64,000 nt of DNA from Nitrosopumilus sp. GTDB lineage: Archaea > Thermoproteota > Nitrososphaeria > Nitrososphaerales > Nitrosopumilaceae. The notes under the pieces were generated by a model that worked only from the letters and a program-made list of their open reading frames with translations, was not told where the DNA came from and made no database searches. The stretch is from contig CBDBLX010000002.1 of the NCBI GenBank assembly GCA_965207445.1, forward strand, positions 1,943,849 through 2,007,848, given 5' to 3'. Below, one piece after another: positions 9,401-37,073 of the stretch. A program made the translations under genes and the position numbers. Numbering within the stretch: the first letter of the stretch is position 1; the number at the start of each line of letters is the position of its first letter.

Positions 9401-12400
9401 GCAGCGTCACGGCCGCTCCTGGCACGGCAGACGGGCTGACAAACGCCCCCTCCTGAACCCTGAGCAATATAATGTCCCCTAGGGCATCTATCTGTGAGAT
9501 CTGTGCAGGTGTAAGTGTGATTAAGACGCCCATACCACCACCCGTTGCTTGCGCCATCTCTGCGCCGCCAAGTGACACGTCCCGGCTCGTGTCATCTATA
9601 CTGTCGGTGACGGAGAGTTTTTCAAGGTTCGTCAACTCTGCAACGACTGCGTTGCTAAAGCTGACAAGCAGCGTGCGCACGGCGGGCGCCACGTTCATAG
9701 TGGCATTTGACGCATGGGGCGGCGGCGTGGTGATCTCTGCTGTGTCCAGTACGACGGAGGTTTTGTCCATAGGATTTCCTGACACGTCAGAAAACGTGCC
9801 CTCTGATGCTACCAAATACAACACGGACTGCCTCAGGTTCAATATGTCTCTGCGTTGCGTGTCGGTGATCTCCAACACCACGTCCTTGCCGTCAGATATA
9901 GTACGTATGGTGGAGTTGGCAAGCCCCACAGCAACCGTGCCATTGGAATCACCTGAGACTGCCAGTCCCCGTATTGCAGTAGCAGAGACGTCGACTGTTT
10001 CATCAAAGGAGATCAACAGAGTGCGTCCCTGTGTGTTTATGGTAGCGCCCGTAATTATAGGCGGGGCCGTGTCGTTGCGTATAATTATCGGGTTATTAAC
10101 GTCTTCTGCGCTCTCAATGCCATTTACAGTGATGACTGCGCCGGCATCCAAGTCGAGCTCAAGTGGGCGAGTCATATCAAGAACCTGTAGCCTCTGCTCT
10201 TCTGTCATCTCTATTACAAGGATTGGTCCGTCGTCTTGCGATGACGATACTGATGCCTCTGTCAACTGCACGCCGCCAGACGACGCGCCGCGCTCGCGTA
10301 TGTAAAACTTTGACGTGTCGACGTGATCAGCAGGCGTTGCATCAACTGCCACACTGAATGTAACACGGAGTTCTCGGCTGCCAGAGTCCAGATCAATGAC
10401 TGCCAGGTCAGCCTCTGTCGGCGTTATGTCCTCCACAGTTATCATAACAGACGCGTCCACCTTATTTTGCGCCATATCCGTAGCAGAGACCGTGACCGTG
10501 TGCGTGCCGGCCGCAAGTTGATGCGTGATGCTCATCTGGTTGTCATACTGTGGCAGTTCAGTGCCGTCTGCGCTCCAGGATATAGATGGTATCTCAATGT
10601 TGTCAGATATCTGGGCCTCAAACCGTATGGGCTGCAGCGAGTGGAATGAACCGTCGGCAGGCGATATGATGTCTACAGAAGGCAATATCCCGTCAACAGA
10701 TATAGTACTGGTAAACGCCAGCGGTCCGGACTTGCTAACAGGCGGCTGCGGGTTTATCTGCATTGTCAGCTCGGGGGGCGGGAGGTCAGGTAGTACGTCT
10801 CTGAATGGATGTGATGCTGCCTTTATGGCAGCACCGTCAGGAAACCTCAGCGAGTCAGCAGACACATAGTTGAGATCCATAGTATAGTCACCGTCTTGCA
10901 CCAAATATGAAAAGACGAGTTGCGCAGTACCGTTGCCACCATCATATCTGGCAGTTCGGTCAGCCGCGCCCGTCTCCAGATCTAGCACGGGTGTGCCCGT
11001 GACATGTACAGGCTCAGAAAAGTGAACATTAATGAACACCTGCCTGCCTGCGCCATACGTCTCCTCAGTCTGGGCGCCTGACACACCATAAGCAAGGATG
11101 TCTCTGTCCCAGAACAGCACGTACACGGCCCCCCTCGCGCCCACGGCAACCTCGGGGGCGCCGTCGCGGTCCAAGTCACCTATAACAGCAAAGGATAAGC
11201 CAAACTCGCGGACGTCATCGCCTATTGCATGCATCGCCCGGTTAATCTCATATGAGCCCTTTATACTCCCATCTGAGTTCAAAAGTAGCATGTGGACGGT
11301 ACCGGCGTTGTTCACACCATCTCTGTCTGCCCCAGGGGCCCCTACTGCGACATCCGGCGTCCCGTCGCCGTCCAGATCGCCCGCGGCCCCGACGGACAGT
11401 CCAAAGTCGTCGTTTGCCCGTATCGCCGGGGCATTTTCTGACGAGGCGTCTAGTTTTAGGACAGACTTTACAGATATCGTGCCGCCACCGCCACCACTGC
11501 GCTCAAGCAGTATTACATGCACGGCCTCATCGTACCCCGAGCTCACATTGTCGTGGTTAAAGGAGCTGTCCGAGGGATGCGATCCGGACACCAAATCTAT
11601 CATGCCATTACCGTCGATGTCACCGACGGCAGCAAGCGAGAATCCCAACCCTGCGCCGTCTGCGAGGTCAAAGCCGCGTGCGCTGTCGCGGTTTATCTCG
11701 GCCACGTGCTGCGCGCGCACCTGCTGGCCGCCTGACCCACGGTCCAGCGAAAGTATATGTATAGCGCCACTAGCACGGGGGCCGTCCCCGTTGGCTCCGA
11801 CTGCCACATAGACAGTCTTGTCAAAATCCAGGTCGCCCAGAACTGCCAGCGCGGACCCAAAGTTGTCGCTCACCCTTATGCGACCCTCCTGGCCCCGGAC
11901 GCTGGGATCAAGGCCTGCCAAATTCTGCGGGCCAAAAGAAGATGTATGGTTTACCGTGCCGTCTGGGTTTAGCAATCGCACCTGGATCTCTCCGCATGTG
12001 CCAGGATTGCATACGGGGTTACCAGCTTCCGGGACGCCCACCAATATATCCGTGGTGCCGTCACGGTTGATGTCTCCTATGTTGACAGCGGATCTTCCAA
12101 ACCCCGCAGAGTGAGTGGCTTGACCGACGCTGCTCTTGACTGTGCCGTTTGGGTTCATAAATGCGATGTGAAATCCAGAAGGCGTACGGTCAAAAATATT
12201 CCGAGTGCCGTACGATCCCACGGCAAGATCCGGGGTGCCGTCGCGGTTCAGGTCTCCTAGCCCAGCCACTGCCGTATTGTACACCGGAGCCCTTTTACAG
12301 ATATTTATGTCCAGGGAAAAGCATTCATACCCTCTATGATGTAGTATTCGGTGCACCTCAAACAGTTGTATCTCAGTGCTGTCGCCCAACTCTTCGCTGG

Positions 12401-15400
12401 GCCCCGGCTTTGGGGCATAAAGCGGGATCAAATGCACCACACCCAGTTTAGCGCCCGTATAATTGTACGTGGGCTCACTGACTACAAGGTCGGTCACACC
12501 GTCGCCGTTAAAGTCAGCGGCCGCTATCTCGGTGCCAAACCCGTCTCTCTGGTCCATTATCATGATGTGCTCTGTGTCGTTGTTGATTGTAATTGTGGAC
12601 TTTGGGACACCGTCGCCGCCGAGGTACACCAGATGTATCGAGTTGTCATCCACAGAGGTCGCTTCACCCGGAGCCCCCACGGCTATATCGTAGAATCCAT
12701 CGCCGTCCAGATCGCCCATTCCCGTCACAGAGCTGCCAAAGTTGGAACGAGAGGTCTGGCGCGGGCCAAACTCGTCGCTGCTAGTTATTTTGTGCAACAG
12801 GTTCAACGACGGGGAGCCGTTTGCATATCCTAGTGACAGTAAGAATACAGAGCCGTCCTTGCTTCCGTTGTGAGGTTCACCCGGTGCCCCTACTGCAATC
12901 TCCGTGGTGCCGTCGCCGTTGACATCACCCACGTTTGCAACTGACGTGCCAAATTTGATATCAGGTCCAGTAGTATCTCCACCCACCGATCTGTAGGTGA
13001 ACTTGTATGTAGATTTGATAGAGTTTGCGCTGTTCATTAAAATTACATGTATGGCGCCCTGATTTGCCACCGTCGAACCGAGCGGGTCATCAAAGTCATC
13101 ATTAGGGGTGCCCACCACCACATCAGGAACGCCGTTACCATCAATGTCGCCAGCAGACGCCACAGAGGCGCCAAATTCATCAAACTGTTCAAGGATGGGT
13201 CCTCCGTTCGCATTGTGTATCGCAAATGAGGACTTTAGTGTGCCGTTGCTGTGAAGCAGTACCACGTATACGGTGCCCGTATTAGGTCCACTATCGTCAT
13301 CTCCGGTAGCGCCCACCAGTATATCCATAACACCGTCGCCGTCCATGTCGCCGGCAGGTGCCACAGAGGTGCCAAAATAGTCATGTGAACCCCGGACCGG
13401 CTGCTTTTGGTCCAGTATGACTTGTACTGATTTTATAGCATACCCACCATCTTCCATCAGTATTATAAACACGGCGCCCTCGTTCTCATCACTACTGTCT
13501 TCAGTTGGGTCATAGTCCTTTGCCCCCACTGCAAAGTCAACGGCACCGTTGCCGTCTATGTCCCCTATGGATGCCACAGATGAGCCAAAGTCACTGCCCC
13601 TCTCAGTCGGAAAGAGAGAAGAGGACGTCACATTGATGGTAAACGTGCCGGCGGCAATAGGGGCGGCAATAGGGGCGGCAATAGGCACATATCTGGGCGG
13701 CGCGGTGTCTATTCCAAACTCCGAGAGTCCGACCTTGACTACATACGGAAGATCGCTGTCGGCCACAAGCACGTAATCACCAATAACTGCAATATCATAC
13801 GGGTCTCCGAACAGATCGAGTCCTGAGCCTTCATCTCCGAACTGCGAGATGAATAGTCCCGAGGGTGTAAACACCGACACCCGTTGGTTTGAGGAATCCA
13901 CGGCAAATACGCGCGATCCGTCAAATGCCATACCACGCACGGCGGCAAACTCACCTTGGCCGGTACCGCTACGACCAAACTCGGATATATAATCTCCAGA
14001 ATGATCAAACACCTGCACTATATCCCGGTCGCGGTCTGCCACGTAGATGTGCATATTGTTGACTGCAATGCCAGTGGGATTTCGGAACTGGCCGTTACCA
14101 AAGCCGTTGCCGCCGAACTTTGTGACAAAGGTGCCATTGGTGTAAAATATCTGAACATCGTTTCGCGTGATATCCGATACAAAGACATGCGTAGAGTTGG
14201 CAGCAATGCCAGTGGGGTTTCGGAACTGGCCGTTGACAGTACCGGTGCCGCCGAACTTTGTGACAAATGCCCCAGTGTCGGCTCGGAACACATGGATGAG
14301 ATCCCGCGCGTTGTCTGACACAAAGACAAACTCAGAGTTGGCCGCGATGGCAGTAGGGCTTCGGAACTGGCCATTTGCATTACCCTGACTGCCAAACTTT
14401 GAGAGATAGTTGCCGTTATAATCAAGTACTTGCACGTCCCGGCGCTGAGAATCCAGCACAAATATCTTCTCAGCATTGGCCGTAATTGAGCGTACAGTCT
14501 GGAACTGTCCATCGCCGCTACCCTTGATTATATCCCCGGCAAACGCATACGGATAATTGTTAAACACCCTGACCCTGTCGCCGCCCCCTGTATCTGCCAC
14601 AAAGGTGCGGAATTTGATAATTGTAATGCCAGTCGGATCGTGTAGTTGACTCGCGGTGCCGGCAGTATTGTTAAATGTGCGCACATATTTTCCGGACAGA
14701 TCAAATACCTGAACGTCGCCGCGGCCAGAGTCCATCACCATAATGTTCGCCGAGTCTACCTCGATGCCCGTGGGGTCTTGGAATTGGCCGTTAGCGGTGC
14801 CGGTGCTGCCAAAGCTCGAGAGATGTTTTCGCGTGTTGGCATCAAAGATGTGCACCATGTCGCCGGCGGTATCCGTCACAAAGACGTGAGTGGCGTTGGC
14901 CGCGACCGCGTGTGGATCGCGCAAGGAGGAGTGGGACAAAGTACCTGCCGATGATCGGATTTTATCTTCATTGTTGGTGGTTACGTCGAGTACCGTGACG
15001 TAGTCCCGTTGTGTGTCCGTCACAAAGATGTGCGTGCCGTTGGAGGCCATGCCTAGAACATCATTAAAGTAACCTCTCGGAGTCTCACCCGCCTTCTGTC
15101 CAATCTTTGGGTAAACGAACAGTTGTTTCCCTGAATGATCATATACTTCGAGCCGCTCATAAAGGACGAAATTGAAATTAAGTGCACTGTAGTCGGTCAT
15201 CACAAACACCTTATCGTGGGTGACTGTAAGGACTCGTGCTTGTGCAGAGACGTCAAACTCCGAGACGAGTGAATCGCGTTCGTCAAATATGAAGACTTTG
15301 CCGGTGGATTCTGTTTTGAGGGCATCTAGCACAAACACATGCGTTGAGTTGGAGTCAATATCCTGCAGGTTTTCAAAATTACGGACAAAGTTGTACTCAA

Positions 15401-15512
15401 ATGAGGATGCGTGCGCCTCATTACTACCACCACCACCACCACCAGTATCATCATACATTACAAACAGAGCAGACGTAATGATAATAACAGACATCATAAC
15501 TAAGAGACTCAT
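1..15512 (-). CDS. Giant modular cell-surface protein (N-terminal TM/signal, NHL beta-propeller repeats, FG-GAP/integrin-alpha-like repeats, Ig-like/cadherin-like and DUF5011-like domains, ~14 FN3 domains, further NHL blocks); +1 frameshift at ~2531; 3' end lies outside the window
   Basis: ORF 2457..15512 (4351 aa) shows GQFRNPTGIAANSTHVFVSD NHL repeats, FGxSVAxxGDxDGDGxxDxAVGA FG-GAP repeats and FN3 units ending YQFRVNATNVAGTGPAS. Removing one C at 2531-2532 restores ...TNLTKEQSYQFR and the same frame reads FVSDITRDDVQIFYTNG at position 2. Confidence 0.9.
1890..2765. repeat. Three near-identical tandem 288-bp FN3-coding units
   Basis: gtgggttcagtccacgtc recurs at 2070, 2358, 2647 (periods 288 and 289). 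Confidence 0.9.
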
Positions 15513-15642
15513 GACGCGCCTGACACAGTCCGATGTGTTGCCCAGTTCTAATCACCTTTTTCCCAACAGCATGCAAATATCCCACCAACTACATAGCATA
15601 ATATAGTCAGATGTATTACACATTTAGGTACACCTTCCATTT

Positions 15643-15655
15643 CCCCCCCCCCCCC
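15643..15655. repeat. C13 homopolymer ~130 bp upstream of the giant surface-protein gene
   Basis: ttcccccccccccccaac. Confidence 0.85.
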
Positions 15656-16066
15656 AACACACACATCCTATACAGACCAATTTGTTTAATAACATAAAAA
15701 GTCGTATATAAAATAACATTTCAATTTTTCTGTTTACTACAGATGTAAAATACATATAGTAAAATACTATACCCGAATTTTGCGAAAGTCGTATAATCAC
15801 CAACATAGTTGCTACCAAATTGTTTGTATTAATAAATACGCATAATTAACTGTCATGATTTTTAGATTCTCCAAAAGCACGAGCTCAGGTCAAATCAGAT
15901 ACATTGACATCCATACGTACCTGACCGCAAGACGTCAATAAGTGAAAAATAGAGTACAGTAATTCATAAATCATATACATACAAGTCACCGTATTGTACA
16001 ATGATGTACAATACACAAGAGTTTAATCATCAAAAACATGTAAACTTTAGAATTTGACTGATACAG

Positions 16067-16312
16067 TGGTAATACATCGAGGGTATGGCGGGTACCCATG
16101 TAGTATGGTTTCAGCGCGTGTCTCTTCGCTCTGGGGCATGGTAATACATCGGGGTTATGGGGTGTACCCATAGCTACAGAATGTGGTTGAAAAGGAGTGT
16201 GAACAGTTCAGTGTTATACTTGCAGAGTCACAGGTGATGATCTCTGCATGGACTCGGTGTGATCTGTATGGTAAACAGTTCAGTGCCATGCTGTAGAATC
16301 ACAGGTGTGATC
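16067..16312. repeat. Two adjacent imperfect direct-repeat pairs, each with 72-bp period
   Basis: tggtaatacatcg..gtacccat at 16067 and 16139; aacagttcagtg..tcacaggtg(a)tgatc at 16202 and 16274. Confidence 0.7.
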
Positions 16313-16712
16313 GAGATTCTAGAGGCATCCGGAGATATTTAGGGAAGTATTGTAGTAACAGTAACAGTAATAGTAGAATTTTGTAAAAACAAGACTTGAT
16401 CGATGTGTACAAACAGCGTGCAACAAGTATCAGTTCACTTGCAAACGCGGTTGATCGATGTTTATATGAACTTTTTATCTGAATTTAATATTTGAGGCTG
16501 AGAAAGTGTAAATTTTTAGTACTTTTTTGCGTGACTATGGCGGTAGTTTGGAATAGGGATACAGTTAGAGTTAGGATCAAAAAGACAAACGGGGTGGTTC
16601 ACCTTGAAGAAATTGTACTGTACGCCAAAAATGATAGTTTGATTTGGCATCAAAACACAAACAGATGTAGAGTGTTTGTATATATGATGTGTAATGTGCA
16701 GAGTCTGGCAAT

Positions 16713-18104
16713 TCAGGCAGAGGCACGTATGGATGCGTTTTGAATGAACGTTATCCAAGCATCACAACTATCTGCAAGATCAGAGTCTTTTACTGATATA
16801 ATGTCAATTTTAATTGCCTTGGCAGGCGTCATGTTGTTTTTGAGGCCTGTGTGTTTTCTAAAAAAATTATGATATACTATGATCAGACGTAAGAGTCCGG
16901 GGTCCTCTGATTTTAGTCCACGTACACACTTGAGTCTATCCTCAAATTCTCCATTGAGTCGTTCGTAGACGTTATTTTGATTAAAAAGATTCTGTATGTG
17001 TATCTCACGTATGTGTACAAACACCGATCCAGCCCGTCTAAAGAATACTTTTCTGGCAGGCTTTATGAACTCCTGCAGTCCATCACTTACAAGTATGCGT
17101 GGTAGCCTACACGTACGGGTAGCAGCCATTTGAAACAGGTTAGTGGGATCAGATCCCTTTTTCTTCTTGAGGATCTCGTGGGATAAAACAAATCGACTTG
17201 CGCCATCCATTACACCAAACAAATATCTGGTCTGTTTACGTATTTTAAATTCTAACTCGTCGACATGCCACTGAAACCATGCATCAAGACACAATAAACT
17301 TGAGAACCGTAGCATGATTCGCGAATACTCATCAGTCCACCCATGTATTGTAGATGGGTTTATGATGATCTCATCCATTGCAAGCTGCACACATACTTCT
17401 TCTGGAGACATTTTAGTTGCCATCATGGACAACGCTTTTGCTATTACGGATGCATCAAAATGCCGTCCCTTGAACCCTTCCATTCCAGAAAATGTACGGC
17501 CACATTTTTTGCACATGTATCGCCTCACAGATCTTTTTCTCTTACACTTGCGCTCTCCCCATCCTACCACATCTTTGGATCTGCATTTTGAATACTGACA
17601 TCTCAATTTTTTGCGCCTAATCTGTATCCTTTTTCTACGCCCACACCACCACTCTTTGTCTAAGAGCTTGTATACACCCACTACATGCTTGCATATCTTT
17701 TTTCCATTTTGATTGGCCTCACACTGACATCTCATTCCAAGTGAACTAAGCGACACCACATACAATAGACCTTGCACAGTTTGCGATGCGACTGTCCATT
17801 TAATCGAGCTTAGTGTAGTTATGGCACCTGCATACTAATATGATTAAAGATCCGATATTTTGATTGATATTCATCTCGAAGTTGAGCACATATTATGAAT
17901 ACAAAATATTAGAAAACTATCGGATCTTTAATGAAACTATTATGCAATGCATGCAATCTGAATGCCTGCTTTCCTAATTGCATCAATCTGAGCCTTGGAG
18001 CGCCTCTGCTTGCCATGCTTTGGGTTGTCATTTTCCAATGTTTTTGATCTTGATTGAGTAGTTTCGTCTACCACCTTTTCTTCCTGAACTGTTTTTTGTT
18101 TCAT
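16713..18104 (-). pseudogene. IS6-family DDE transposase with N-terminal SWIM and Zn-ribbon motifs, 5' part split by a 106-bp MITE
   Basis: CQC..CKH SWIM motif, CxxC ribbons, WHVDE / LVSDG / NNVYERLNGEF DDE motifs; removing the MITE joins MKQKTVQ...GIQIACIA to AGAITTLSSIKWTVASQTVQG in frame (~427 aa). Confidence 0.85.
17833..17942. mobile_element. MITE family A copy 1 (106 bp plus TA duplication)
   Basis: Inverted core attaaagatccgata...tatcggatctttaat, flanked by TA on both sides; 2 mismatches to the copy at 21817-21922. Confidence 0.85.
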
Positions 18105-18580
18105 TATACATATATCACCAATTGGATATATAAGCATTCGTGCGCAATTCTATGTCAGTGACGTTATAACGTTGTACTGAGAACAACAAACATGACTAAA
18201 TGGGCTGCCAATGCCACTGAATTCCAAGTATCCATAACCCACAACGTGAAAAGAGGTACCAGTTACTCATACATTCCAAAGCCGGTCCTTGCCAAACTTG
18301 GTAACCCAGAGGGTTTGAAGTTTATCATACGTGGCGACAAAATACTAGTTACGTGTCCGGATTGACTACAACGGTTCAAATCTGTATTAATTGCCCCCAA
18401 CCGCGTTTGCAGGAGAACCTGACAACAGAATACACATGTCACACAAGAATCAGGATGCATCCATACAGACAACGCCTATAAACCACCGCCATAAGACATA
18501 ACCATCGAAGAGTTGGAGAAGGATCTAAGATAGAATCTAAGAGCAAACTACTTACGAATAGAATAAGGGAGTAAAGATGT

Positions 18581-21049
18581 ATGTCGTACCAAAGTTTCGA
18601 TCTTTACAAAGAGATCATAAAAGACACGGACCACGATTATCACAAAAAACAGGTAAAGGATAGGTTAGAGCCATACCTGAAATATCTCCAATTGGTAACC
18701 AAACACTACAGAGAAAATCCCATAGTGTTTAATTACATATATGATCAACCTCAGGGAATCAAACCAAAGCGAAAGATACGACAGGACGAACCCGTATGGA
18801 TTCAACTGGGTGAAATGAGCGATGAAGATCGACGATATATTCTAGACGGGGACCATGTAAAACATGTGCATGAGGATGTGGACAAAGATCAGGATGATGA
18901 AGTAAAAATAAGTGTCATACAACGCGACGTTGCCGGAAGATTGCAGCTGGCGCGCAGGCCGAGAACTAAAAAGCTGAGAGTATATCGCATTATATACACG
19001 ATAATGACGCAGATAAAGGCCGTAAAGTCTTTGCTGCATCGACCAAAACCGGAGAATTCCCCTCTGCTAAAGCTCTTTTACGACAGAGACCACGTGGCGT
19101 TGGAAGACATGGAAGAACAACACATAGACAAATGGTTTGTTTTGGACGGGCGCGATGGCTCTGACCGGCAGAAGGAATTCGTGGAAAAGGCTCTCGCCAC
19201 TCCGGACTTTGGATTTTTGGAAGGGCCGCCAGGCTCGGGCAAAACTACCGTACTCTGCGAGCTGGTTCACCAGCTCGTGCATCAGGGAAAACGCGTGCTG
19301 TTCTGCGCGTCAACCCACATAGCGGTGGACAACCTGCTGGAAAAGATCACCAACGAGTACACAAGAAAACCTACAGACTCCAACATCATCCCACTGAGGG
19401 TGGGTGTCTCGGAAAAGATTTCCGACCTCGTACGCGGGTACACGTACGACACCTGCATAAAGACCATGCAAGAAAAGATATCCAACCATCTTGAGGACGT
19501 TTCCGACAAAAGCGAGGCGCAAAAGGCCCTGTATGAGCAGCTCCGATCGGACGATACTATAGGAAACATAGCACGTGACTGCGCAAACCTTGTGTGTGGT
19601 ACGACCATGGGCATACTCCAGCATCCCGACATCAAAAACGGCAACGCGGGTATGTTCGACGTCATGATAATTGACGAGGCCTCCAAGACCACGTTTCAGG
19701 AGTTTCTGGTTCCGGCTATGCACGCCAAGCGCTGGATAATAGTAGGCGATACCAAGCAGCTTGCACCCCACACAAGTTCGGAAGAGTTTGGCCTGCATGT
19801 CAACGCATGCATCGGGCGCGAGGAAGGTCAAGCGTGCCTCGACGCGTTTCTAGCCGCCAGTCAAGACCAACGCATCATAGCAACTGTGGAAAGCCAATCT
19901 GCAAAGAATGCCTACAGTCGCCAATGCGACAAACACGGGGTCGCCCTGCATGACGCCGATGACAAGCCGCCGGAGCGCGCATGGAAAGGAATCGTAGTGG
20001 GAACAGCAGATTCCATATCGAAGGCAGACGACGGATTTTTCCAAAGTGTCAATCCCAAGCGCGACATAATCCGAGGGTACGACGAGATACGTGCCCATTT
20101 AAATCGACAAAAGCGTAGAATACCGCGGGTGATACATCCTATGAAGAATGGTTTGGACAAAGACCTGACATGGGGGGCGCAGATGGCGTGGCGGATCATA
20201 TCACTGTCCGGACACGAGAGCGGCTCGGAACACTATGCCAGTCAAGCGATCGAAAAGCTCATGCCGGCAGACGACAAGGATACACGTCTCAGACTGGAAG
20301 ATGTCAAAAAGATCGCGCTACCGTCGATTTTACATCTGCTTCAGCATGGCTATGGGACAGGAGAGAATACGATCATGACGGAAGGTATTCCGGAACAAGA
20401 CTTTGCAAAACGGCACGTGCTTTTGCAGCAGCAGTACAGAATGCACCCGGAGATAGCAAAATTTCCCAGGACATACGTGTACAAGGGACGAGCGCTTGAG
20501 ACTCCAAAAGCAGTAGGATTCGAACGCGAATGGTCATACAGGGAATACGAAAAAAGATCCGTCTGGATCGACGTCAAGGATGCATCCCAGAACAGCTCTG
20601 AAGCCGAGGCCGAATGTATAATGAATGAGCTGGAAAAGTTTTACGGATTCGCGATCAAAACCAAGCCAGGCCGCGGCCTGCCGTGGGAGGTGGCAATATT
20701 GACGTTTTACACAAAGCAACAGCAAACCATACTGTCCCACATCAAAAAGATCGCTCGGGCCAAGAACGGGTACGAATTCGCGCTGATGGATGACAGGAAG
20801 GAGATCGTGACCGTCCAATGCCGCACGTTGGACTCCTTTCAGGGATACGAGGCCGACGTGGTTTTCTTGAGCATCGCAAACAACCACCCGACACTCTTTC
20901 TTGAAAATCCCAACCGCATCAACGTCGCGATAACAAGGGCACGGTACCAGAACGTGATCGTGGGGGACAAAAAAGCCATGAGTAGTTCGAGATCGTTGAT
21001 GGGCAGGTTTGCCATGAACACGCGTGTACACAGGGGCTGCAAATCATGA
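18581..21049 (+). CDS. Superfamily 1 helicase, UPF1/DNA2/NAM7-like (AAA_11/AAA_12)
   Basis: EGPPGSGKT Walker A, ASTHIAVDN, IIDEAS, IVGDTKQLAP, QYRMHPEI, TLDSFQGYEAD, NRINVAITRAR. Confidence 0.9.
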   Translation: MSYQSFDLYKEIIKDTDHDYHKKQVKDRLEPYLKYLQLVTKHYRENPIVFNYIYDQPQGIKPKRKIRQDEPVWIQLGEMSDEDRRYILDGDHVKHVHEDVDKDQDDEVKISVIQRDVAGRLQLARRPRTKKLRVYRIIYTIMTQIKAVKSLLHRPKPENSPLLKLFYDRDHVALEDMEEQHIDKWFVLDGRDGSDRQKEFVEKALATPDFGFLEGPPGSGKTTVLCELVHQLVHQGKRVLFCASTHIAVDNLLEKITNEYTRKPTDSNIIPLRVGVSEKISDLVRGYTYDTCIKTMQEKISNHLEDVSDKSEAQKALYEQLRSDDTIGNIARDCANLVCGTTMGILQHPDIKNGNAGMFDVMIIDEASKTTFQEFLVPAMHAKRWIIVGDTKQLAPHTSSEEFGLHVNACIGREEGQACLDAFLAASQDQRIIATVESQSAKNAYSRQCDKHGVALHDADDKPPERAWKGIVVGTADSISKADDGFFQSVNPKRDIIRGYDEIRAHLNRQKRRIPRVIHPMKNGLDKDLTWGAQMAWRIISLSGHESGSEHYASQAIEKLMPADDKDTRLRLEDVKKIALPSILHLLQHGYGTGENTIMTEGIPEQDFAKRHVLLQQQYRMHPEIAKFPRTYVYKGRALETPKAVGFEREWSYREYEKRSVWIDVKDASQNSSEAEAECIMNELEKFYGFAIKTKPGRGLPWEVAILTFYTKQQQTILSHIKKIARAKNGYEFALMDDRKEIVTVQCRTLDSFQGYEADVVFLSIANNHPTLFLENPNRINVAITRARYQNVIVGDKKAMSSSRSLMGRFAMNTRVHRGCKS

Positions 21050-34372: not shown

Positions 34373-34529
34373 TATCCCTCCTGTGCGTTTTATTTTTGGA
34401 TATTTAAAGAAACGACGTTGGGCTCAAAAAGTGGCAAGTCGACGTTATGACATACGGTGACTAATCAGGTGTGTCCTGCTGTAACGCCTCGTTTTACAAC
34501 AGAATACATGATAACATCCCTCGATATCG

Positions 34530-34655
34530 TATAATGATGAATCAACCCCTAGTGGTTTATGGGACACGATCCCTTGCAACAGAATGGGGCAATTCAAGCT
34601 GCCGTATAATTGGGCTGCGAGCCCCGATAGGAGTATGCAGCTTCTGTTTCATCAA
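34530..34655 (+). ncRNA. Putative IS110 bridge/seek RNA-like structured non-coding end
   Basis: Two stem-internal-loop-hairpin modules: cccc/gggg enclosing ggga-cacga-tccc, and aagctgc/gcagctt enclosing gggct-gcg-agccc; outer tgatgaa/ttcatca pairing; directly upstream of IS110 ORF. Confidence 0.55.
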
Positions 34656-34685
34656 ATACATCCAAAAGGAGGTGAGAGAAAAAGG

Positions 34686-34871
34686 ATGAAGACATACATT
34701 GGAATCGACATTGGAAAGAAAAATGTGATTACTGCATAGTTGGAAGTAGAGGTAAGACTCTTGAACGTGAACAATACAATAACAACAGAGAGGATGCAAA
34801 GCAATTTGCAAATCAAATATTGAAAAAATATGGTACGAACAACCAGTGCACAACAGCATGCGAAACTACTG
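34686..34871 (+). pseudogene. IS110-family (DEDD RuvC-like) transposase N-terminal remnant
   Basis: aggaggtga RBS; MKTYIGIDIGKK then frameshift to CDYCIVGSRGKTLEREQYNN...ACETT; cut off by IS6 end. Confidence 0.75.
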
Positions 34872-34961
34872 ACGTGGCGACAAAATACTAGGTACGTGTC
34901 CGGATTGACTGCAACGGTTCAAATCTGTATTAAATTACCACCAACCGCGTTTGCAAGAGTC
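34872..34961. mobile_element. Solo IS6-family end, direct copy of 18329-18419
   Basis: acgtggcgacaaaatactag.tacgtgtccggattgact.caacggttcaaatctgtatta...caaccgcgtttgca. Confidence 0.8.
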
Positions 34962-34991
34962 ATTGAGAACATTTTTTCTCATCACAACACA

Positions 34992-37073
34992 CTATTGTAC
35001 AACAATACCAAGATCATCTTGTATCTCTTTGATTGCTCTGATTCCGTATATGTCTCGAACCTGTTGCATGTGCAGTGACTCTTTGAGTATCTTGACACCT
35101 ACACTCTTCTTTATTGTATCATACACGTCTGCAAATCGCACCTCCCATCTATCTGCACAATCAAACATTTTACTCAATGCCCATCTTTTCACATCTTGTG
35201 GTAAATCGTTTACTCTGTTTGACATTACATCTGCTACATGATTTACCGTTGTTTGGCCACCCTTTGCTTCTTGTTCACTGGAATTGTCTTTTGACATTAT
35301 TGTTGTGTCTCTTTCAAAAAGTACTATGATCTCTGCTGTTCGTCTTGCCATCTCTTTTATTACTGATATGTCTCCGTACTTTGACTCTGCATTCATTCTG
35401 ATTGCAGATTGATACTCTGAGAGTTTGAGCAACCTCGTGGATTCTGTAATTGAATCTTGTGCCACCCTTCCTGTTGCACCTCTTAGATCTTGTATATGGG
35501 TATATATGTTATCTATCTTTTTGTATACATTTGTAGTATCACTCTCTTGTCTTTGCAGTGCATCTGATGTATTGTGTAATTGTTGGTTTAGTTGCTGTAT
35601 GTTATCTTTAATATCTGTCTTTAATGTTGCCATGTCATCTTGTATTGTCTTGAGTCCTTTGTCTATCAGGTCGGTTGCATCTGCTCTTTGTACAAGTGAT
35701 TGTATCTCTGAGCGCATCTGCTTAATCTTCTCAGATATGGTCTGATATGCAACAATAGTTGACTTTGTTGTTGATTCATGTTTTGATACAATTTCGTTGA
35801 TTTGCGCTTGTAGTAAATCTGCATCTTGATTCATCTTATCCATATGTGATGTAATGTTTACTATACTATCACTTAGATTTCTTATATCCTGTGCGCCAAT
35901 GGCGCTCTGCGCAATCCCATCTACTGTGCTCGTAATCTTTTCAACTTTGTCTTGTAGTTGTTCTGCTAGAGTAGATTTAGACTCTACAATCTTGGTGAGT
36001 TCTTCTCTAAGTGACTTTATATTTACATCTGACTGTGCAATCCCATCTACTGTGCTCGTAATCTTTTCAACTTTGTCTTGTAGTTGTTCTGCTAGAGTAG
36101 ATTTAGACTCTACAATCTTGGTGAGTTCTTCTCTAAGTGACTTTATATCTACATCTGACTGTGTAATTTTTCCAACCGCATTTTTGATCTTTTCAATATC
36201 ATTTCTCAGTATATTTATTGTAGAACCTGATTGAGTCACATCAGTCATCTTTGATATCTCTGATCTCAGTGCGTCAATCTCTGCACTAGTTCCTGCAGCA
36301 GACGCTGATCGTGCAGCAACTATCTTTATCTCTTTTCTCACCGCATCTACTGCTTGTGAGAGGTTTGCTATTGCATCTGTACTCTCTTTGATCGTTTTCA
36401 CACCATCGCTGATCTTTTTTGTGATTGTCTTTGTGTTAGATGAGTTCTGTGCTTTTACATTTGTAGTAGATAATGCGGCAACGTCTTTTATCTGTTCTTG
36501 AAACTCAAGTACACGTTTTTCGAGTTTTTTGATTGCCTTTGATTGACCTCCGATCTCCTCTAGTCCAGAGAATAACCCTTGCGTCTCTTTCTTTAAATTT
36601 GATATCTGACGGGATTGTTTTTGAATCTGCAATAGTACTGCTGCTAGTGACTCAGACATGCCACTTATCGATGACATTCTCTTTTGATTGCCAGCAAATG
36701 TCTTTGAGATTGATTTTATCTCATTACGTAACTCTTCATTTAACTCCGTAATAGAGTTTATTTTCGATAGTACCTCAGGTGTTATTGTCTCTGTCTTTTG
36801 TGCTTGTTTTGTATTTTTTGTTTTTGTGGGCTTGCTGTGTTTTTTTGTCAAATCTTTATTTTTTTCTTGTGGTGTGTTTTTTTTATTATCTTGTTTTATT
36901 TTACTAGACTTGTTTTTTGTTGTCGCATTTATTCTTGTCTTTTTTGTTGTAGATGTTTGTGCAGTTGCATGTTTTGCATCATTTTTATTTTTGGCTGTAT
37001 TTGATGTACTCTTTTTCACTATCACTCGTGTTGTCATGATCTGTATTTTCAATTTGATTTTAAAAACATGCAC
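34992..37073 (-). CDS. Long coiled-coil protein with Lys/Thr-rich N-terminus (conserved thaumarchaeal type; start may be ATG ~37037)
   Basis: Heptad-rich sequence; C-terminal SEYQSAIRMNAESKYG...VKRWALSKMFDCADRWEVRF. Confidence 0.75.
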   Translation of the reverse strand: MHVFKIKLKIQIMTTRVIVKKSTSNTAKNKNDAKHATAQTSTTKKTRINATTKNKSSKIKQDNKKNTPQEKNKDLTKKHSKPTKTKNTKQAQKTETITPEVLSKINSITELNEELRNEIKSISKTFAGNQKRMSSISGMSESLAAVLLQIQKQSRQISNLKKETQGLFSGLEEIGGQSKAIKKLEKRVLEFQEQIKDVAALSTTNVKAQNSSNTKTITKKISDGVKTIKESTDAIANLSQAVDAVRKEIKIVAARSASAAGTSAEIDALRSEISKMTDVTQSGSTINILRNDIEKIKNAVGKITQSDVDIKSLREELTKIVESKSTLAEQLQDKVEKITSTVDGIAQSDVNIKSLREELTKIVESKSTLAEQLQDKVEKITSTVDGIAQSAIGAQDIRNLSDSIVNITSHMDKMNQDADLLQAQINEIVSKHESTTKSTIVAYQTISEKIKQMRSEIQSLVQRADATDLIDKGLKTIQDDMATLKTDIKDNIQQLNQQLHNTSDALQRQESDTTNVYKKIDNIYTHIQDLRGATGRVAQDSITESTRLLKLSEYQSAIRMNAESKYGDISVIKEMARRTAEIIVLFERDTTIMSKDNSSEQEAKGGQTTVNHVADVMSNRVNDLPQDVKRWALSKMFDCADRWEVRFADVYDTIKKSVGVKILKESLHMQQVRDIYGIRAIKEIQDDLGIVVQ
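35911..36162. repeat. 126-bp in-frame tandem duplication (42 aa = 6 heptads)
   Basis: gcaatcccatctactgtgctcg at 35911 and 36037. Confidence 0.85.

What the first reader, a model, noticed from the sequence alone, without database searches (positions are those of the whole stretch)
34530..34871. Bridge-RNA-like two-loop structure upstream of an archaeal IS110 remnant
Seen: module 1 cccc[11 nt]ggga-cacga-tccc[12 nt]gggg (34546-34589); module 2 aagctgc[9 nt]gggct-gcg-agccc[12 nt]gcagctt (34596-34643); outer tgatgaa/ttcatca stem; the left loop of module 2 (cgtataat) equals the sequence at 34528-34535 near the presumed left junction; then RBS and YIGIDIGK DEDD N-terminus. Established: IS110 elements encode bridge RNAs with target- and donor-binding loops in the non-coding end. 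Inference: thaumarchaeal bridge RNA, possibly still usable in trans.
Basis: partly seen in the sequence, partly recalled or inferred. Interest (0 to 1): 0.7.

Follow-up and report, generated by a model that had tools for sequence, protein, structure and literature searches.

The report
Archaeal bridge RNA in IS110 relic
This is the guide ("bridge") RNA gene of an RNA-guided jumping gene in an ammonia-oxidising archaeon, still intact in a copy that has lost its enzyme gene; the mechanism is known from bacteria, so it is a well-supported new example and not a new kind of system.

Summary
They are not chance. In 31 distinct relatives from Nitrosopumilaceae and allied genomes, 91.6% of pair cells form standard pairs, 23 of 29 pairs show compensatory changes, and 0 of 500 shuffles reach this.

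All four loop halves track DNA:
- The 3' side of loop 1 copies the left flank plus a core dinucleotide.
- The 5' side of loop 1 is the reverse complement of core plus right flank.
- The 3' side of loop 2 copies the element's right end plus core.
- The 5' side of loop 2 pairs with the left end.
In each permutation test run, 0 of 10,000-20,000 permutations reached the observed value.

So this is a genuine bridge/seek RNA. The window copy "W" is a relic: left end, RNA gene and 62 frameshifted codons, joined at 34871|34872 to the tip of an IS6-like element.

The family combines a guide order and 12-14 bp subterminal repeats like IS1111 with an upstream RNA position like IS110. Expression and action in trans are untested.

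Earlier notes of this scan (unchecked) report archaeal bridge RNAs of the IS1111 type on other genomes. Verdict: new member of a known kind.

The parts
34496..34500 (+). Left half of the insertion target (LT), ACAAC. It is read by the 3' side of the target loop (GCAAC, 4 of 5).
34501..34502 (+). Core dinucleotide AG at the left junction. The same AG stands at position 8-9 of both 3' loop sides.
   Evidence: core concordance in loops and junctions. Most relatives have TG; W/A/B/C/L035 have AG.
34503..34534 (+). Left end of the element up to the RNA. It contains the subterminal inverted repeat ATGATAAC...
   Evidence: the inverted copy of the repeat abuts the right end in intact copies.
34533..34658 (+). 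Bridge (seek) RNA as delimited by covariance model R1 (124 bits). The outer stem P1 is 34535-44 with 34645-54.
   Evidence: W was one of the 16 seed sequences, so its own score is by construction.
34546..34589 (+). Target-binding module. P2 is 34546-49 with 34586-89. The 5' loop side 34550-60 (TAGTGGTTTAT) predicts a right target half (A)ACCACTA. Hairpin P3 is 34561-64 with 34570-73. The 3' loop side 34574-85 (TTGCAACAGAAT) reads LT + core + the first 3 nt of the left end.
34597..34642 (+). Donor-binding module. P4 is 34597-602 with 34637-42. The 5' loop side is 34603-11 (CGTATAATT). Hairpin P5 is 34612-16 with 34620-24. In the 3' loop side 34625-36 (CGATAGGAGTAT), ATAGG+AG equals the right end + core of copies A/B/C.
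34667..34675 (+). Shine-Dalgarno-like AGGAGGTGA, conserved in nearly all relatives upstream of the recombinase start.
34686..34871 (+). Remnant of the DEDD recombinase gene, about 62 codons (MKTYIGIDIGKK...ACETT). It holds the first D and the E of DEDD. One base is missing after the A-run at about 34723 relative to copy A, which gives a TAG stop at 34737-39.
   Evidence: The intact sister is 364 aa with PF01548 + PF02371.
34872..34962 (+). Terminal ~90 bp of an unrelated ~1.88-kb IS6-like element. It is not part of the bridge-RNA element and marks where the relic is cut off.
   Evidence: The joint is bridged by contigs in 4 runs of one sample.

Best explanation
Positions 34533-34658 encode the bridge (seek) RNA of an IS110-family insertion sequence of about 1.41 kb.

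In intact sister copies (A and B in the same genome) the layout is: left end with a subterminal repeat, the RNA, a Shine-Dalgarno site, a 364-aa DEDD recombinase, a 133-nt right end, and the core dinucleotide repeated at both junctions.

The RNA folds into an outer stem enclosing two stem/internal-loop/hairpin modules.
- Module 1 reads the target. [quoted passage not shown] - Module 2 reads the donor in the same way. Its 3' side reads right end + core. Its 5' side pairs with nt 2-6 of the left end.

By analogy with IS621 and ISEc11, the recombinase then exchanges strands at the shared core (AG in this clade, TG in most relatives).

Shown here: the structure with covariation, all four guide-DNA correspondences, and the core concordance. 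Inferred: transcription, binding to the recombinase, and catalysis.

The window copy W is a relic. It keeps the left junction, the left end, a structurally intact RNA gene and 62 frameshifted codons. The rest was lost in a deletion that joined it to the tip of an IS6-like element. W cannot move by itself and is most likely a decaying remnant.
For: - Own-genome copies: A and B are intact, C is frameshifted, D/E/F are partial.
- Recombinase: PF01548 at 97 bits and PF02371 at 70 bits. It is a distant homologue of the ISCro4 (E 1.3e-9) and IS621 (E 2.1e-7) structures. D, E, D, D and SG motifs lie at residues 8, 60, 99, 102 and 265-266.
- Stems: 23 of 29 pairs compensatory in 31 distinct sequences, 0 of 500 shuffles.
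- 3' target guide vs left flank, with the register set independently of the loop (27 elements): 12 at 5/5, 11 at 4/5, 4 at 2/5 or less. Non-cognate mean 1.36. 0 of 20,000 permutations.
- 5' target guide vs right flank (17 elements): mean 4.41 of 7 against 2.14 for non-cognate pairs, 0 of 20,000.
- 3' donor guide: exact 7/7 to the sequence just after the inverted copy of the subterminal repeat in 16 of 19 elements with an intact ORF; 6/7 in one and 5/7 in two.
- 5' donor guide vs left end: mean 4.43 of 5 against 3.51, 0 of 20,000.
- Core: identical in both loops and at both junctions wherever both were found, except the right junction of L034.
- Natural one-base reprogramming: copy C has guide GTAT and flank gtat, while A/B have GCAT and gcat.
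- W: 28 of 29 pairs intact, and a 9-nt loop-junction identity seen in 34 of 100,000 shuffles.
- G-U cells outnumber A-C cells 47 to 23, which favours the recombinase-sense strand.
- The truncation joint is bridged by contigs.
Against: - There is no expression data.
- The W fold is not thermodynamically exceptional (z = -1.19).
- No Rfam 15 family matches. The best hit is a chance-level CRISPR-DR36 match on the other strand, E 0.41.
- W's right end, right flank and recombinase are gone, so only two of its four guides can be checked against its own DNA (left guide 4/5 + core 2/2 + 3/3; 5' donor guide 4/5).
- W's 5' target loop carries UU where its clade has CU opposite the AG core. This is wobble-compatible, not Watson-Crick.
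- Right-flank matches are poor for some copies: L039 0/7; A, C and L034 3/7.
- Right ends were located with the donor loop itself. Their constant position next to the inverted repeat is the independent support.
- Alignment A2 was fitted to the model, which favours the structure.
Confidence: 0.87

Rival explanations
1. W is a live orphan guide. It is still transcribed, is loaded by the recombinase of the intact copies A/B, and steers their circles (or recombination between sites) to its own target ..CAAC AG (A)ACCACTA. On this reading the genome's several left-end relics (W, D, E, F) are guide-only satellites and not debris.
For: - The W scaffold is intact: 28 of 29 pairs.
- Its donor guides fit A/B's ends. 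ATAGG+AG is identical to their right end + core (7/7), and CGTAT pairs with 4 of 5 bases of their left-end ATACA.
- It keeps the left-end A/T-rich repeat about 27 nt upstream of the outer stem, where an archaeal TATA box would sit (inference only).
- Siddiquee et al. showed a seekRNA can be supplied in trans (PMC11187229, section 12, read).
Against: - W and A/B are only 74% identical in DNA.
- The core complement in W's 5' target loop is UU.
- No perfect predicted target exists in the genome. The 4 sites with one mismatch compare with about 0.8 expected from my own arithmetic.
- Relics of this kind also arise by simple decay, and D and F are cut inside the RNA itself.
Confidence: 0.1
2. The structure is a 5'-UTR element that regulates translation or stability of the recombinase mRNA. 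It is not a DNA guide, and the loop-DNA identities are by-products.
For: - It lies directly upstream of a conserved Shine-Dalgarno site and start codon.
- No separate terminator is evident between the RNA and the gene.
Against: - A regulatory leader gives no reason for loop sequences to change together with the flanking DNA of each insertion site and with the far right end of the element.
- The architecture and the shared core match the experimentally characterised bridge/seek RNAs (PMC11208160 passages; PMC11187229 sections 9, 12).
Confidence: 0.02
3. Chance inverted repeats in A/T-rich intergenic DNA, with no conserved element.
For: The MFE z-score is only -1.19.
Against: - 32 model matches next to homologous recombinase genes.
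- Compensatory changes in 23 of 29 pairs.
Confidence: 0.01

Closest known systems
IS621 bridge RNA (IS110 group; Durrant et al. 2024, PMC11208160; Hiraizumi et al. 2024, PMC11208158)
   Same: - Non-coding RNA in the left end, upstream of and in the same sense as a DEDD recombinase.
- Two internal loops, the first for the target and the second for the donor.
[quoted passage not shown] - Extra bases beyond the core on one guide match the other DNA partner (handshake-like).
   Different: - Guide order is reversed. Here the 5' loop side pairs with the top strand (right half) and the 3' side with the bottom strand (left half). In IS621 the 5' side pairs with the bottom strand (passage read).
- The core is TG or AG, not CT.
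- Subterminal repeats are 12-14 bp, against 2-3 bp.
- The recombinase is only distantly related (E 2.1e-7).
- The host is archaeal.
seekRNAs of IS1111-family elements ISEc11, ISPa11, ISKpn4 (Siddiquee et al. 2024, PMC11187229, sections 6, 9, 12 read)
   Same: - The match complementary to the top strand lies 5' of the bottom-strand match.
- Subterminal inverted repeats are of IS1111-like length.
- Insertion is site-specific and duplicates nothing beyond the core.
   Different: - In those elements the RNA lies downstream of the recombinase gene. Here it lies upstream.
- The recombinase is 364 aa, against 330-350 aa stated for IS1111 transposases.
Exceptions listed by Siddiquee et al.: ISMtsp17 (IS1111 relative with an upstream NCR); ISHvo10 and ISAcp5 (long NCRs on both sides)
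   Same: - IS1111-like features combined with an upstream non-coding region.
- This family also has a sizeable right-end NCR (133 nt in copy A).
- A haloarchaeal plasmid relative (29% identity) has an upstream NCR with similar loop motifs.
   Different: No sequence of those named elements was compared here, so kinship is not tested. In the text read, their RNAs are not described in detail.
[quoted passage not shown]
   Same: The sister copy D sits in the terminal inverted repeat of an IS6-like element, and its guide spells that repeat. W's guides differ from that site by one base in the left half.
   Different: - The host element is different (IS6-like, archaeal).
- W itself is not in such a repeat (the flank alignment is no better than shuffles).

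Membership tests
IS110-family bridge/seek-RNA elements (IS110 + IS1111 groups) | [quoted passage not shown] | tested here: met
   Sister copy A: 97.1 and 70 bits, both over the cut-offs. W keeps only the first ~62 codons, with the first D and the E.
IS110-family bridge/seek-RNA elements (IS110 + IS1111 groups) | Conserved structured non-coding RNA with two internal loops in a non-coding end | tested here: met
   29 pairs in P1-P5, 91.6% paired, 23 of 29 compensatory, 0 of 500 shuffles. For the seed alone, 14 of 29.
IS110-family bridge/seek-RNA elements (IS110 + IS1111 groups) | First loop covaries with the insertion target on both sides of the core | tested here: met
   Left: 23 of 27 at 4/5 or better with a register independent of the loop, 0 of 20,000 permutations. 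Right: mean 4.41/7 against 2.14, 0 of 20,000, n = 17. For W only the left side is testable (4/5 + core + 3/3).
IS110-family bridge/seek-RNA elements (IS110 + IS1111 groups) | Second loop matches the element's own joined ends (donor) | tested here: met
   Right end + core is 7/7 in 16 of 19 elements. Left end: mean 4.43/5, 0 of 20,000. W has no right end. Its loop equals the right end of A/B/C.
IS110-family bridge/seek-RNA elements (IS110 + IS1111 groups) | The same core dinucleotide in both loops and at both junctions | tested here: met
   29 of 31 elements agree at loop 1, loop 2 and the left junction. The exceptions are L031 and L060, which have no recognisable left end. 16 of 17 also agree at the right junction.
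IS110-family bridge/seek-RNA elements (IS110 + IS1111 groups) | The RNA is expressed, binds the recombinase and is needed for recombination | not testable with these tools
   No RNA run is listed for this DNA.
IS1111 group | Subterminal inverted repeats of 7-17 bp (Durrant, passage) | tested here: met
   A: ATGATAACCCCC with GGGAGTTATCAT, 11 of 12. L038: 13 of 14. They lie 5 nt and 3 nt inside the ends.
IS1111 group | Guide complementary to the top strand lies 5' of the bottom-strand guide (Siddiquee, section 9) | tested here: met
IS1111 group | Guide RNA in the right end, downstream of the recombinase gene | tested here: not met
   The RNA lies 28-100 nt upstream of the start codon in every relative with a model hit. 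Siddiquee section 6 lists rare exceptions of this kind.
IS1111 group | Recombinase falls in the IS1111 clade | not tested
   No labelled reference sequences were on hand. The best plasmid hits are under 32% identity and named only 'IS110 family'. A motif search of Durrant's Supplementary Table 1, which was cut when stored, found nothing.
IS110 group (IS621, ISEc21 type) | Guide RNA in the left end, upstream of the recombinase | tested here: met
IS110 group (IS621, ISEc21 type) | 5' loop side pairs with the bottom strand and 3' side with the top strand | tested here: not met
   The order is reversed here (set against the passages).
IS110 group (IS621, ISEc21 type) | Only a very short (2-3 bp) subterminal repeat | tested here: not met
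   12-14 bp here.

The most novel reading that the evidence does not exclude
This archaeal clade is a natural hybrid. It has guide polarity and long subterminal repeats like IS1111, but the RNA sits upstream as in IS110. That would make it a living intermediate of the RNA translocation between element ends that Durrant et al. postulated. In addition, its left-end relics such as W would persist as guide-only satellites that recruit the recombinase of intact copies in trans and redirect them to new sites, among them the ends of other insertion sequences.
Probability: 0.1. Interest if true: 0.7.

Novelty: new member of a known kind. Interest (0 to 1): 0.4.

Why it matters
Bridge/seek RNAs were described in 2024 from bacterial elements. 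Searches for 'bridge RNA' with Thaumarchaeota (0 papers), IS110 with Nitrosopumilus and bridge recombinase with archaeal found no paper describing this archaeal family. Archaeal IS110 recombinases do appear in large surveys (passages).

Here all four guides can be read against real junctions in ammonia-oxidising archaea. The data include a natural one-base retargeting and a switch of the core dinucleotide.

The mix of IS1111-type guide order with an upstream RNA adds to the short list of exceptions. It could help work out how the RNA moved between element ends.

For this genome, it explains a non-coding structured stretch as transposon debris. It also shows that the IS110-type elements here land in the ends of IS6-like elements.

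Tried and rejected
- Rfam 15 at E up to 10 gave only chance-level hits: CRISPR-DR36 on the minus strand (E 0.41) and two lncRNA fragments. I rejected a CRISPR reading, since there is no repeat array.
- Single-sequence folding did not recover the covarying structure as the MFE and gave z = -1.19.
- No RNA holder was listed for this stretch, so expression could not be examined. The 4 DNA runs come from one sample and were used only to check the 34871|34872 joint.
- Model R1 found nothing significant in the haloarchaeal (L073) and Rhizobium (L072) relatives. The best E was 0.88 with filters off, so the family's reach beyond Nitrososphaeria is unsettled.
- Seven of 36 relatives' loci gave no R1 hit at E <= 0.01: L044, L050, L058, L061, L063, L064 and L065. 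By eye, L058, L064 and L065 show similar loops.
- Placing the recombinase in the IS110 or IS1111 clade failed. Plasmid hits carry no group names, and motif searches in Durrant's Supplementary Table 1 found nothing.
- W's left flank is not a diverged IS6-like end. The local alignment scores 14, against a shuffled mean of 16.5.
- Genome scans for the predicted targets gave no perfect W site and no clear enrichment.
It occurs in 2% of shuffles, so its origin stays open.
- L031 and L060 lack a recognisable left end. L032/L033 lack a recognisable right end within 330 nt of the stop codon. These were left out of the respective counts, as stated.

Full report
OBSERVATION. There are two stem/internal-loop/hairpin modules (34546-34589 and 34596-34643) inside an outer stem (34535-41 with 34648-54). 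They are followed by AGGAGGTGA (34667-75) and an ORF starting MKTYIGIDIGKK at 34686. Folding the single sequence is uninformative: the MFE is -45.3 kcal/mol, z = -1.19, and the covarying structure is only partly recovered. Rfam 15 has nothing above chance here.

COPIES IN THE SAME GENOME. The window is G000:C2:1943849-2007848. The genome carries archaeal amoA.
- A DNA search found two full-length relatives at 74% identity (A at C2:1276155-1276526 and B at C2:2064223-2064604, both on the minus strand). It also found C (76%), a 92-nt fragment D (91%), a more distant E, and 17 hits to the last 29 bases of the query only.
- Pfam PF01548 rings at 9 places in the genome.
- Aligning A, B and C with flanks defines an element of about 1.41 kb. 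Its layout is: flank | AG | AATACATGATAACC... RNA, SD, 364-aa ORF, 133-nt tail ...GTTATCATAGG | AG | flank.
- The ORF has PF01548 (97 bits) and PF02371 (70 bits). It is remotely similar to the solved ISCro4 and IS621 recombinases.
- The ends carry a subterminal inverted repeat (ATGATAACCCCC with GGGAGTTATCAT).

RELATIVES.
- The search for related loci returned 6 loci in Nitrosopumilaceae/Thaumarchaeota MAGs at 53-74% identity.
- A protein search of 401 genomes of the order found matches at E <= 1e-20 in 62 genomes, in 25 of 82 genera.
- Upstream regions of 33 of these plus W were extracted.
- Sixteen were aligned (A1). The structure I wrote from that alignment has 29 pairs in P1 (outer), P2/P3 (module 1) and P4/P5 (module 2).
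- On A1, 91.6% of 464 cells pair, 14 pairs change on both sides, and 0 of 500 shuffles reach any of four measures. Partners slid by 1-3 columns give 35-49%.
- A covariance model R1 finds 6 places in the own genome: W, A, B, C, E and a partial F. It finds 29 places in 36 relatives' loci.
- On the 32-row model alignment A2 (31 distinct rows), 91.6% of 889 cells pair, 23 of 29 pairs are compensatory, and 0 of 500 shuffles reach this. Slid controls give 29-44%. A2 is fitted to the model, which favours it. A1 was a plain MAFFT alignment.
- G-U cells outnumber A-C cells 47 to 23. This modestly favours the recombinase-sense strand.

LOOPS AGAINST DNA. I call the loop sides T5 and T3 (module 1) and D5 and D3 (module 2).
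- T3. Positions 3-7 copy the five bases left of the element, positions 8-9 are the core, and positions 10-12 copy the first bases of the left end. Examples: W has GCAAC-AG-AAT against flank ACAAC-AG-AAT. L043 has GTTGG-TG-AAT against GTTGG-TG-AAT. L049 has GGTTC-TG-ACT against GGTTC-TG-ACT.
   - When both cognate and non-cognate loops were free to choose their register, cognate pairs scored 4.66 of 7 against 3.45 (29 elements; B and L033 dropped as duplicates, F because it lacks the loop). 0 of 10,000 permutations reached this.
   - With the register fixed by the ATG of the subterminal repeat, independent of the loop, 12 of 27 elements score 5/5, 11 score 4/5 and 4 score 2/5 or less. Three of the low four have a second ATG nearby that misplaced the anchor. 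The non-cognate mean is 1.36, with 0 of 20,000 permutations.
- D3. Positions 3-9 are found exactly (7/7) downstream of the stop codon in 16 of 19 elements with an ORF of 250 aa or more, at 6/7 in L034 and 5/7 in L032/L033. In each case they lie directly after the inverted copy of the subterminal repeat. That fixes the right end.
- T5. The bases that follow the right end match the reverse complement of T5, e.g. L049 TG-TTAACTC, L043 TG-CGTAAT, B AG-TGATT. The mean is 4.41 of 7 against 2.14 for non-cognate pairs, with 0 of 20,000 permutations, n = 17. Poor cases are L039 (0/7) and A, C and L034 (3/7).
- D5. Its first five bases pair with bases 2-6 of the left end: mean 4.43 of 5 counting wobble, against 3.51, with 0 of 20,000.
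- Core. The core is the same in T3, in D3 and at the junctions. It is TG in most elements and AG in W, A, B, C and L035.
- Copy C differs from A/B by one base in T3, and its flank differs in the same way.

COMPARISON WITH WHAT IS KNOWN.
- Durrant et al. (PMC11208160, passages read) describe IS621. Its first loop reads the target and its second the donor. [quoted passage not shown]
- Hiraizumi et al. (PMC11208158, passages) add handshake bases beyond the core.
- Siddiquee et al. (PMC11187229, sections 6, 9, 12 read) report that in IS1111-family seekRNAs the top-strand match lies 5' of the bottom-strand match. The reverse holds in the IS110-type ISEc21. [quoted passage not shown]
- In the family found here the top-strand guide is 5' and the subterminal repeats are 12-14 bp, as in IS1111. 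Yet the RNA is upstream of the gene, as in IS110.
- If the element is read on the opposite strand, the pairing geometry is that of IS621, including a 3-nt extension of the 3' guide into the other DNA partner.
- I could not place the recombinase in either clade.
- R1 does not score a haloarchaeal plasmid relative or a Rhizobium relative. By eye, the former has an upstream NCR with similar loop motifs.

THE WINDOW COPY.
- W has the left junction (LT 34496-500, core 34501-02), the left end, and an RNA gene in which 28 of 29 pairs are standard.
- It keeps 62 codons of the recombinase, with a one-base deletion near 34723 and a stop at 34737-39.
- At 34872 the sequence switches to the last ~90 bp of a ~1.88-kb element. 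That element is present in 7 full-length and at least 13 partial copies. Its 471-aa ORF matches DDE_Tnp_IS240 at 28.7 bits, just over the cut-off of 27.
- Contigs in four runs of one sample, probably the source of the assembly, bridge the joint at single-copy depth.
- W's right end and right flank are therefore lost. From T5 its right target half would read (A)ACCACTA.
- Its donor guides fit the ends of A/B (D3 7/7, D5 4/5), so action in trans is conceivable. It is untested, and no RNA data exist.
It is absent from all other copies, so I do not count it as guide logic.

LITERATURE AND EARLIER NOTES.
- Searches found no description of this archaeal family.
- Archaeal IS110 recombinases do figure in surveys: Vaysset et al. 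preprint (passages); Durrant Supplementary Table 1 has one Thaumarchaeota row with an unrelated sequence; and a 2026 preprint mines RNAs next to bridge recombinases at scale (passages).
- Earlier AI notes of this scan (unchecked by me) report archaeal bridge RNAs of the IS1111 type on other genomes, among them one upstream relic. This kind has therefore been seen before in the scan.

VERDICT. This is a new, well-resolved archaeal member of the bridge/seek-RNA insertion sequences. It has an unusual but not unprecedented layout, and it is preserved here as a relic.

Noticed in passing
window 34872-34962; another copy at about window 16433-18419; G000:C2:1912962-1914834 as reference: An abundant ~1.88-kb IS6-like insertion sequence. 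Its 471-aa ORF matches PF13610 at 28.7 bits. There are 7 full-length and at least 13 partial copies at 88-98% identity. Its tip is what cuts off the IS110 relic.
   Followed up: partly
G000:C2:2066028-2066119 (outside the window): Copy D is 91% identical to W and broken inside the target loop. It sits in the terminal inverted repeat of an IS6-like copy (..GCGTTTGCAAG|AT|AATACACG). Its 3' guide GCAAG-AG spells that repeat, so this subfamily targets the ends of another insertion sequence.
   Followed up: partly
window 34955-34975: The IS6-like fragment beside W ends ..GTTTGCAAGAG then TCATTGAGAAC. Other copies read ..GTTTGCAGGAGAACC. The extra bases start exactly at the predicted crossover point of the W/D-type guide. 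The cause is unknown.
   Followed up: no
loops and junctions of W, A, B, C, L035 versus all other relatives: The core dinucleotide switches from TG to AG in one clade. The change appears together in both loops and at both junctions.
   Followed up: yes
G000:C2:469236 and C2:1004807 (minus strand): A perfect unoccupied 14-nt site for the copy-B guides (about 0.02 expected by chance, from my own arithmetic) and a one-mismatch twin with similar flanks. This is possibly a repeated natural landing site.
   Followed up: no
G000:C2:1750036, 1284550, 1401710, 1189009: A second IS110-family lineage with recombinases of about 410 aa, 28% identical to the 364-aa one. One copy lies about 65 nt from an IS6-like end. 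Its guide RNA was not examined.
   Followed up: no
G000:C2:1088818-1088965 (E) and C2:1502056-1502154 (F): Further left-end relics of the same RNA family. E has a full two-loop RNA with a longer hairpin but no recombinase gene after the start codon. F lacks the target loop.
   Followed up: partly
L073:780-900 (Natrarchaeobaculum plasmid NZ_CP024046.1): A haloarchaeal relative (29% identity) has a ~195-nt upstream non-coding stretch. It contains CTGACTGG and ATAGGTGAAT, motifs like the 3' loop sides of this family. The covariance model does not score it.
   Followed up: partly
window 34992-37073 (minus strand): A 693-aa low-complexity, coiled-coil-like ORF with an exact internal direct repeat of about 126 nt (visible at 35925-36050 and 36040-36165).
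   Followed up: no
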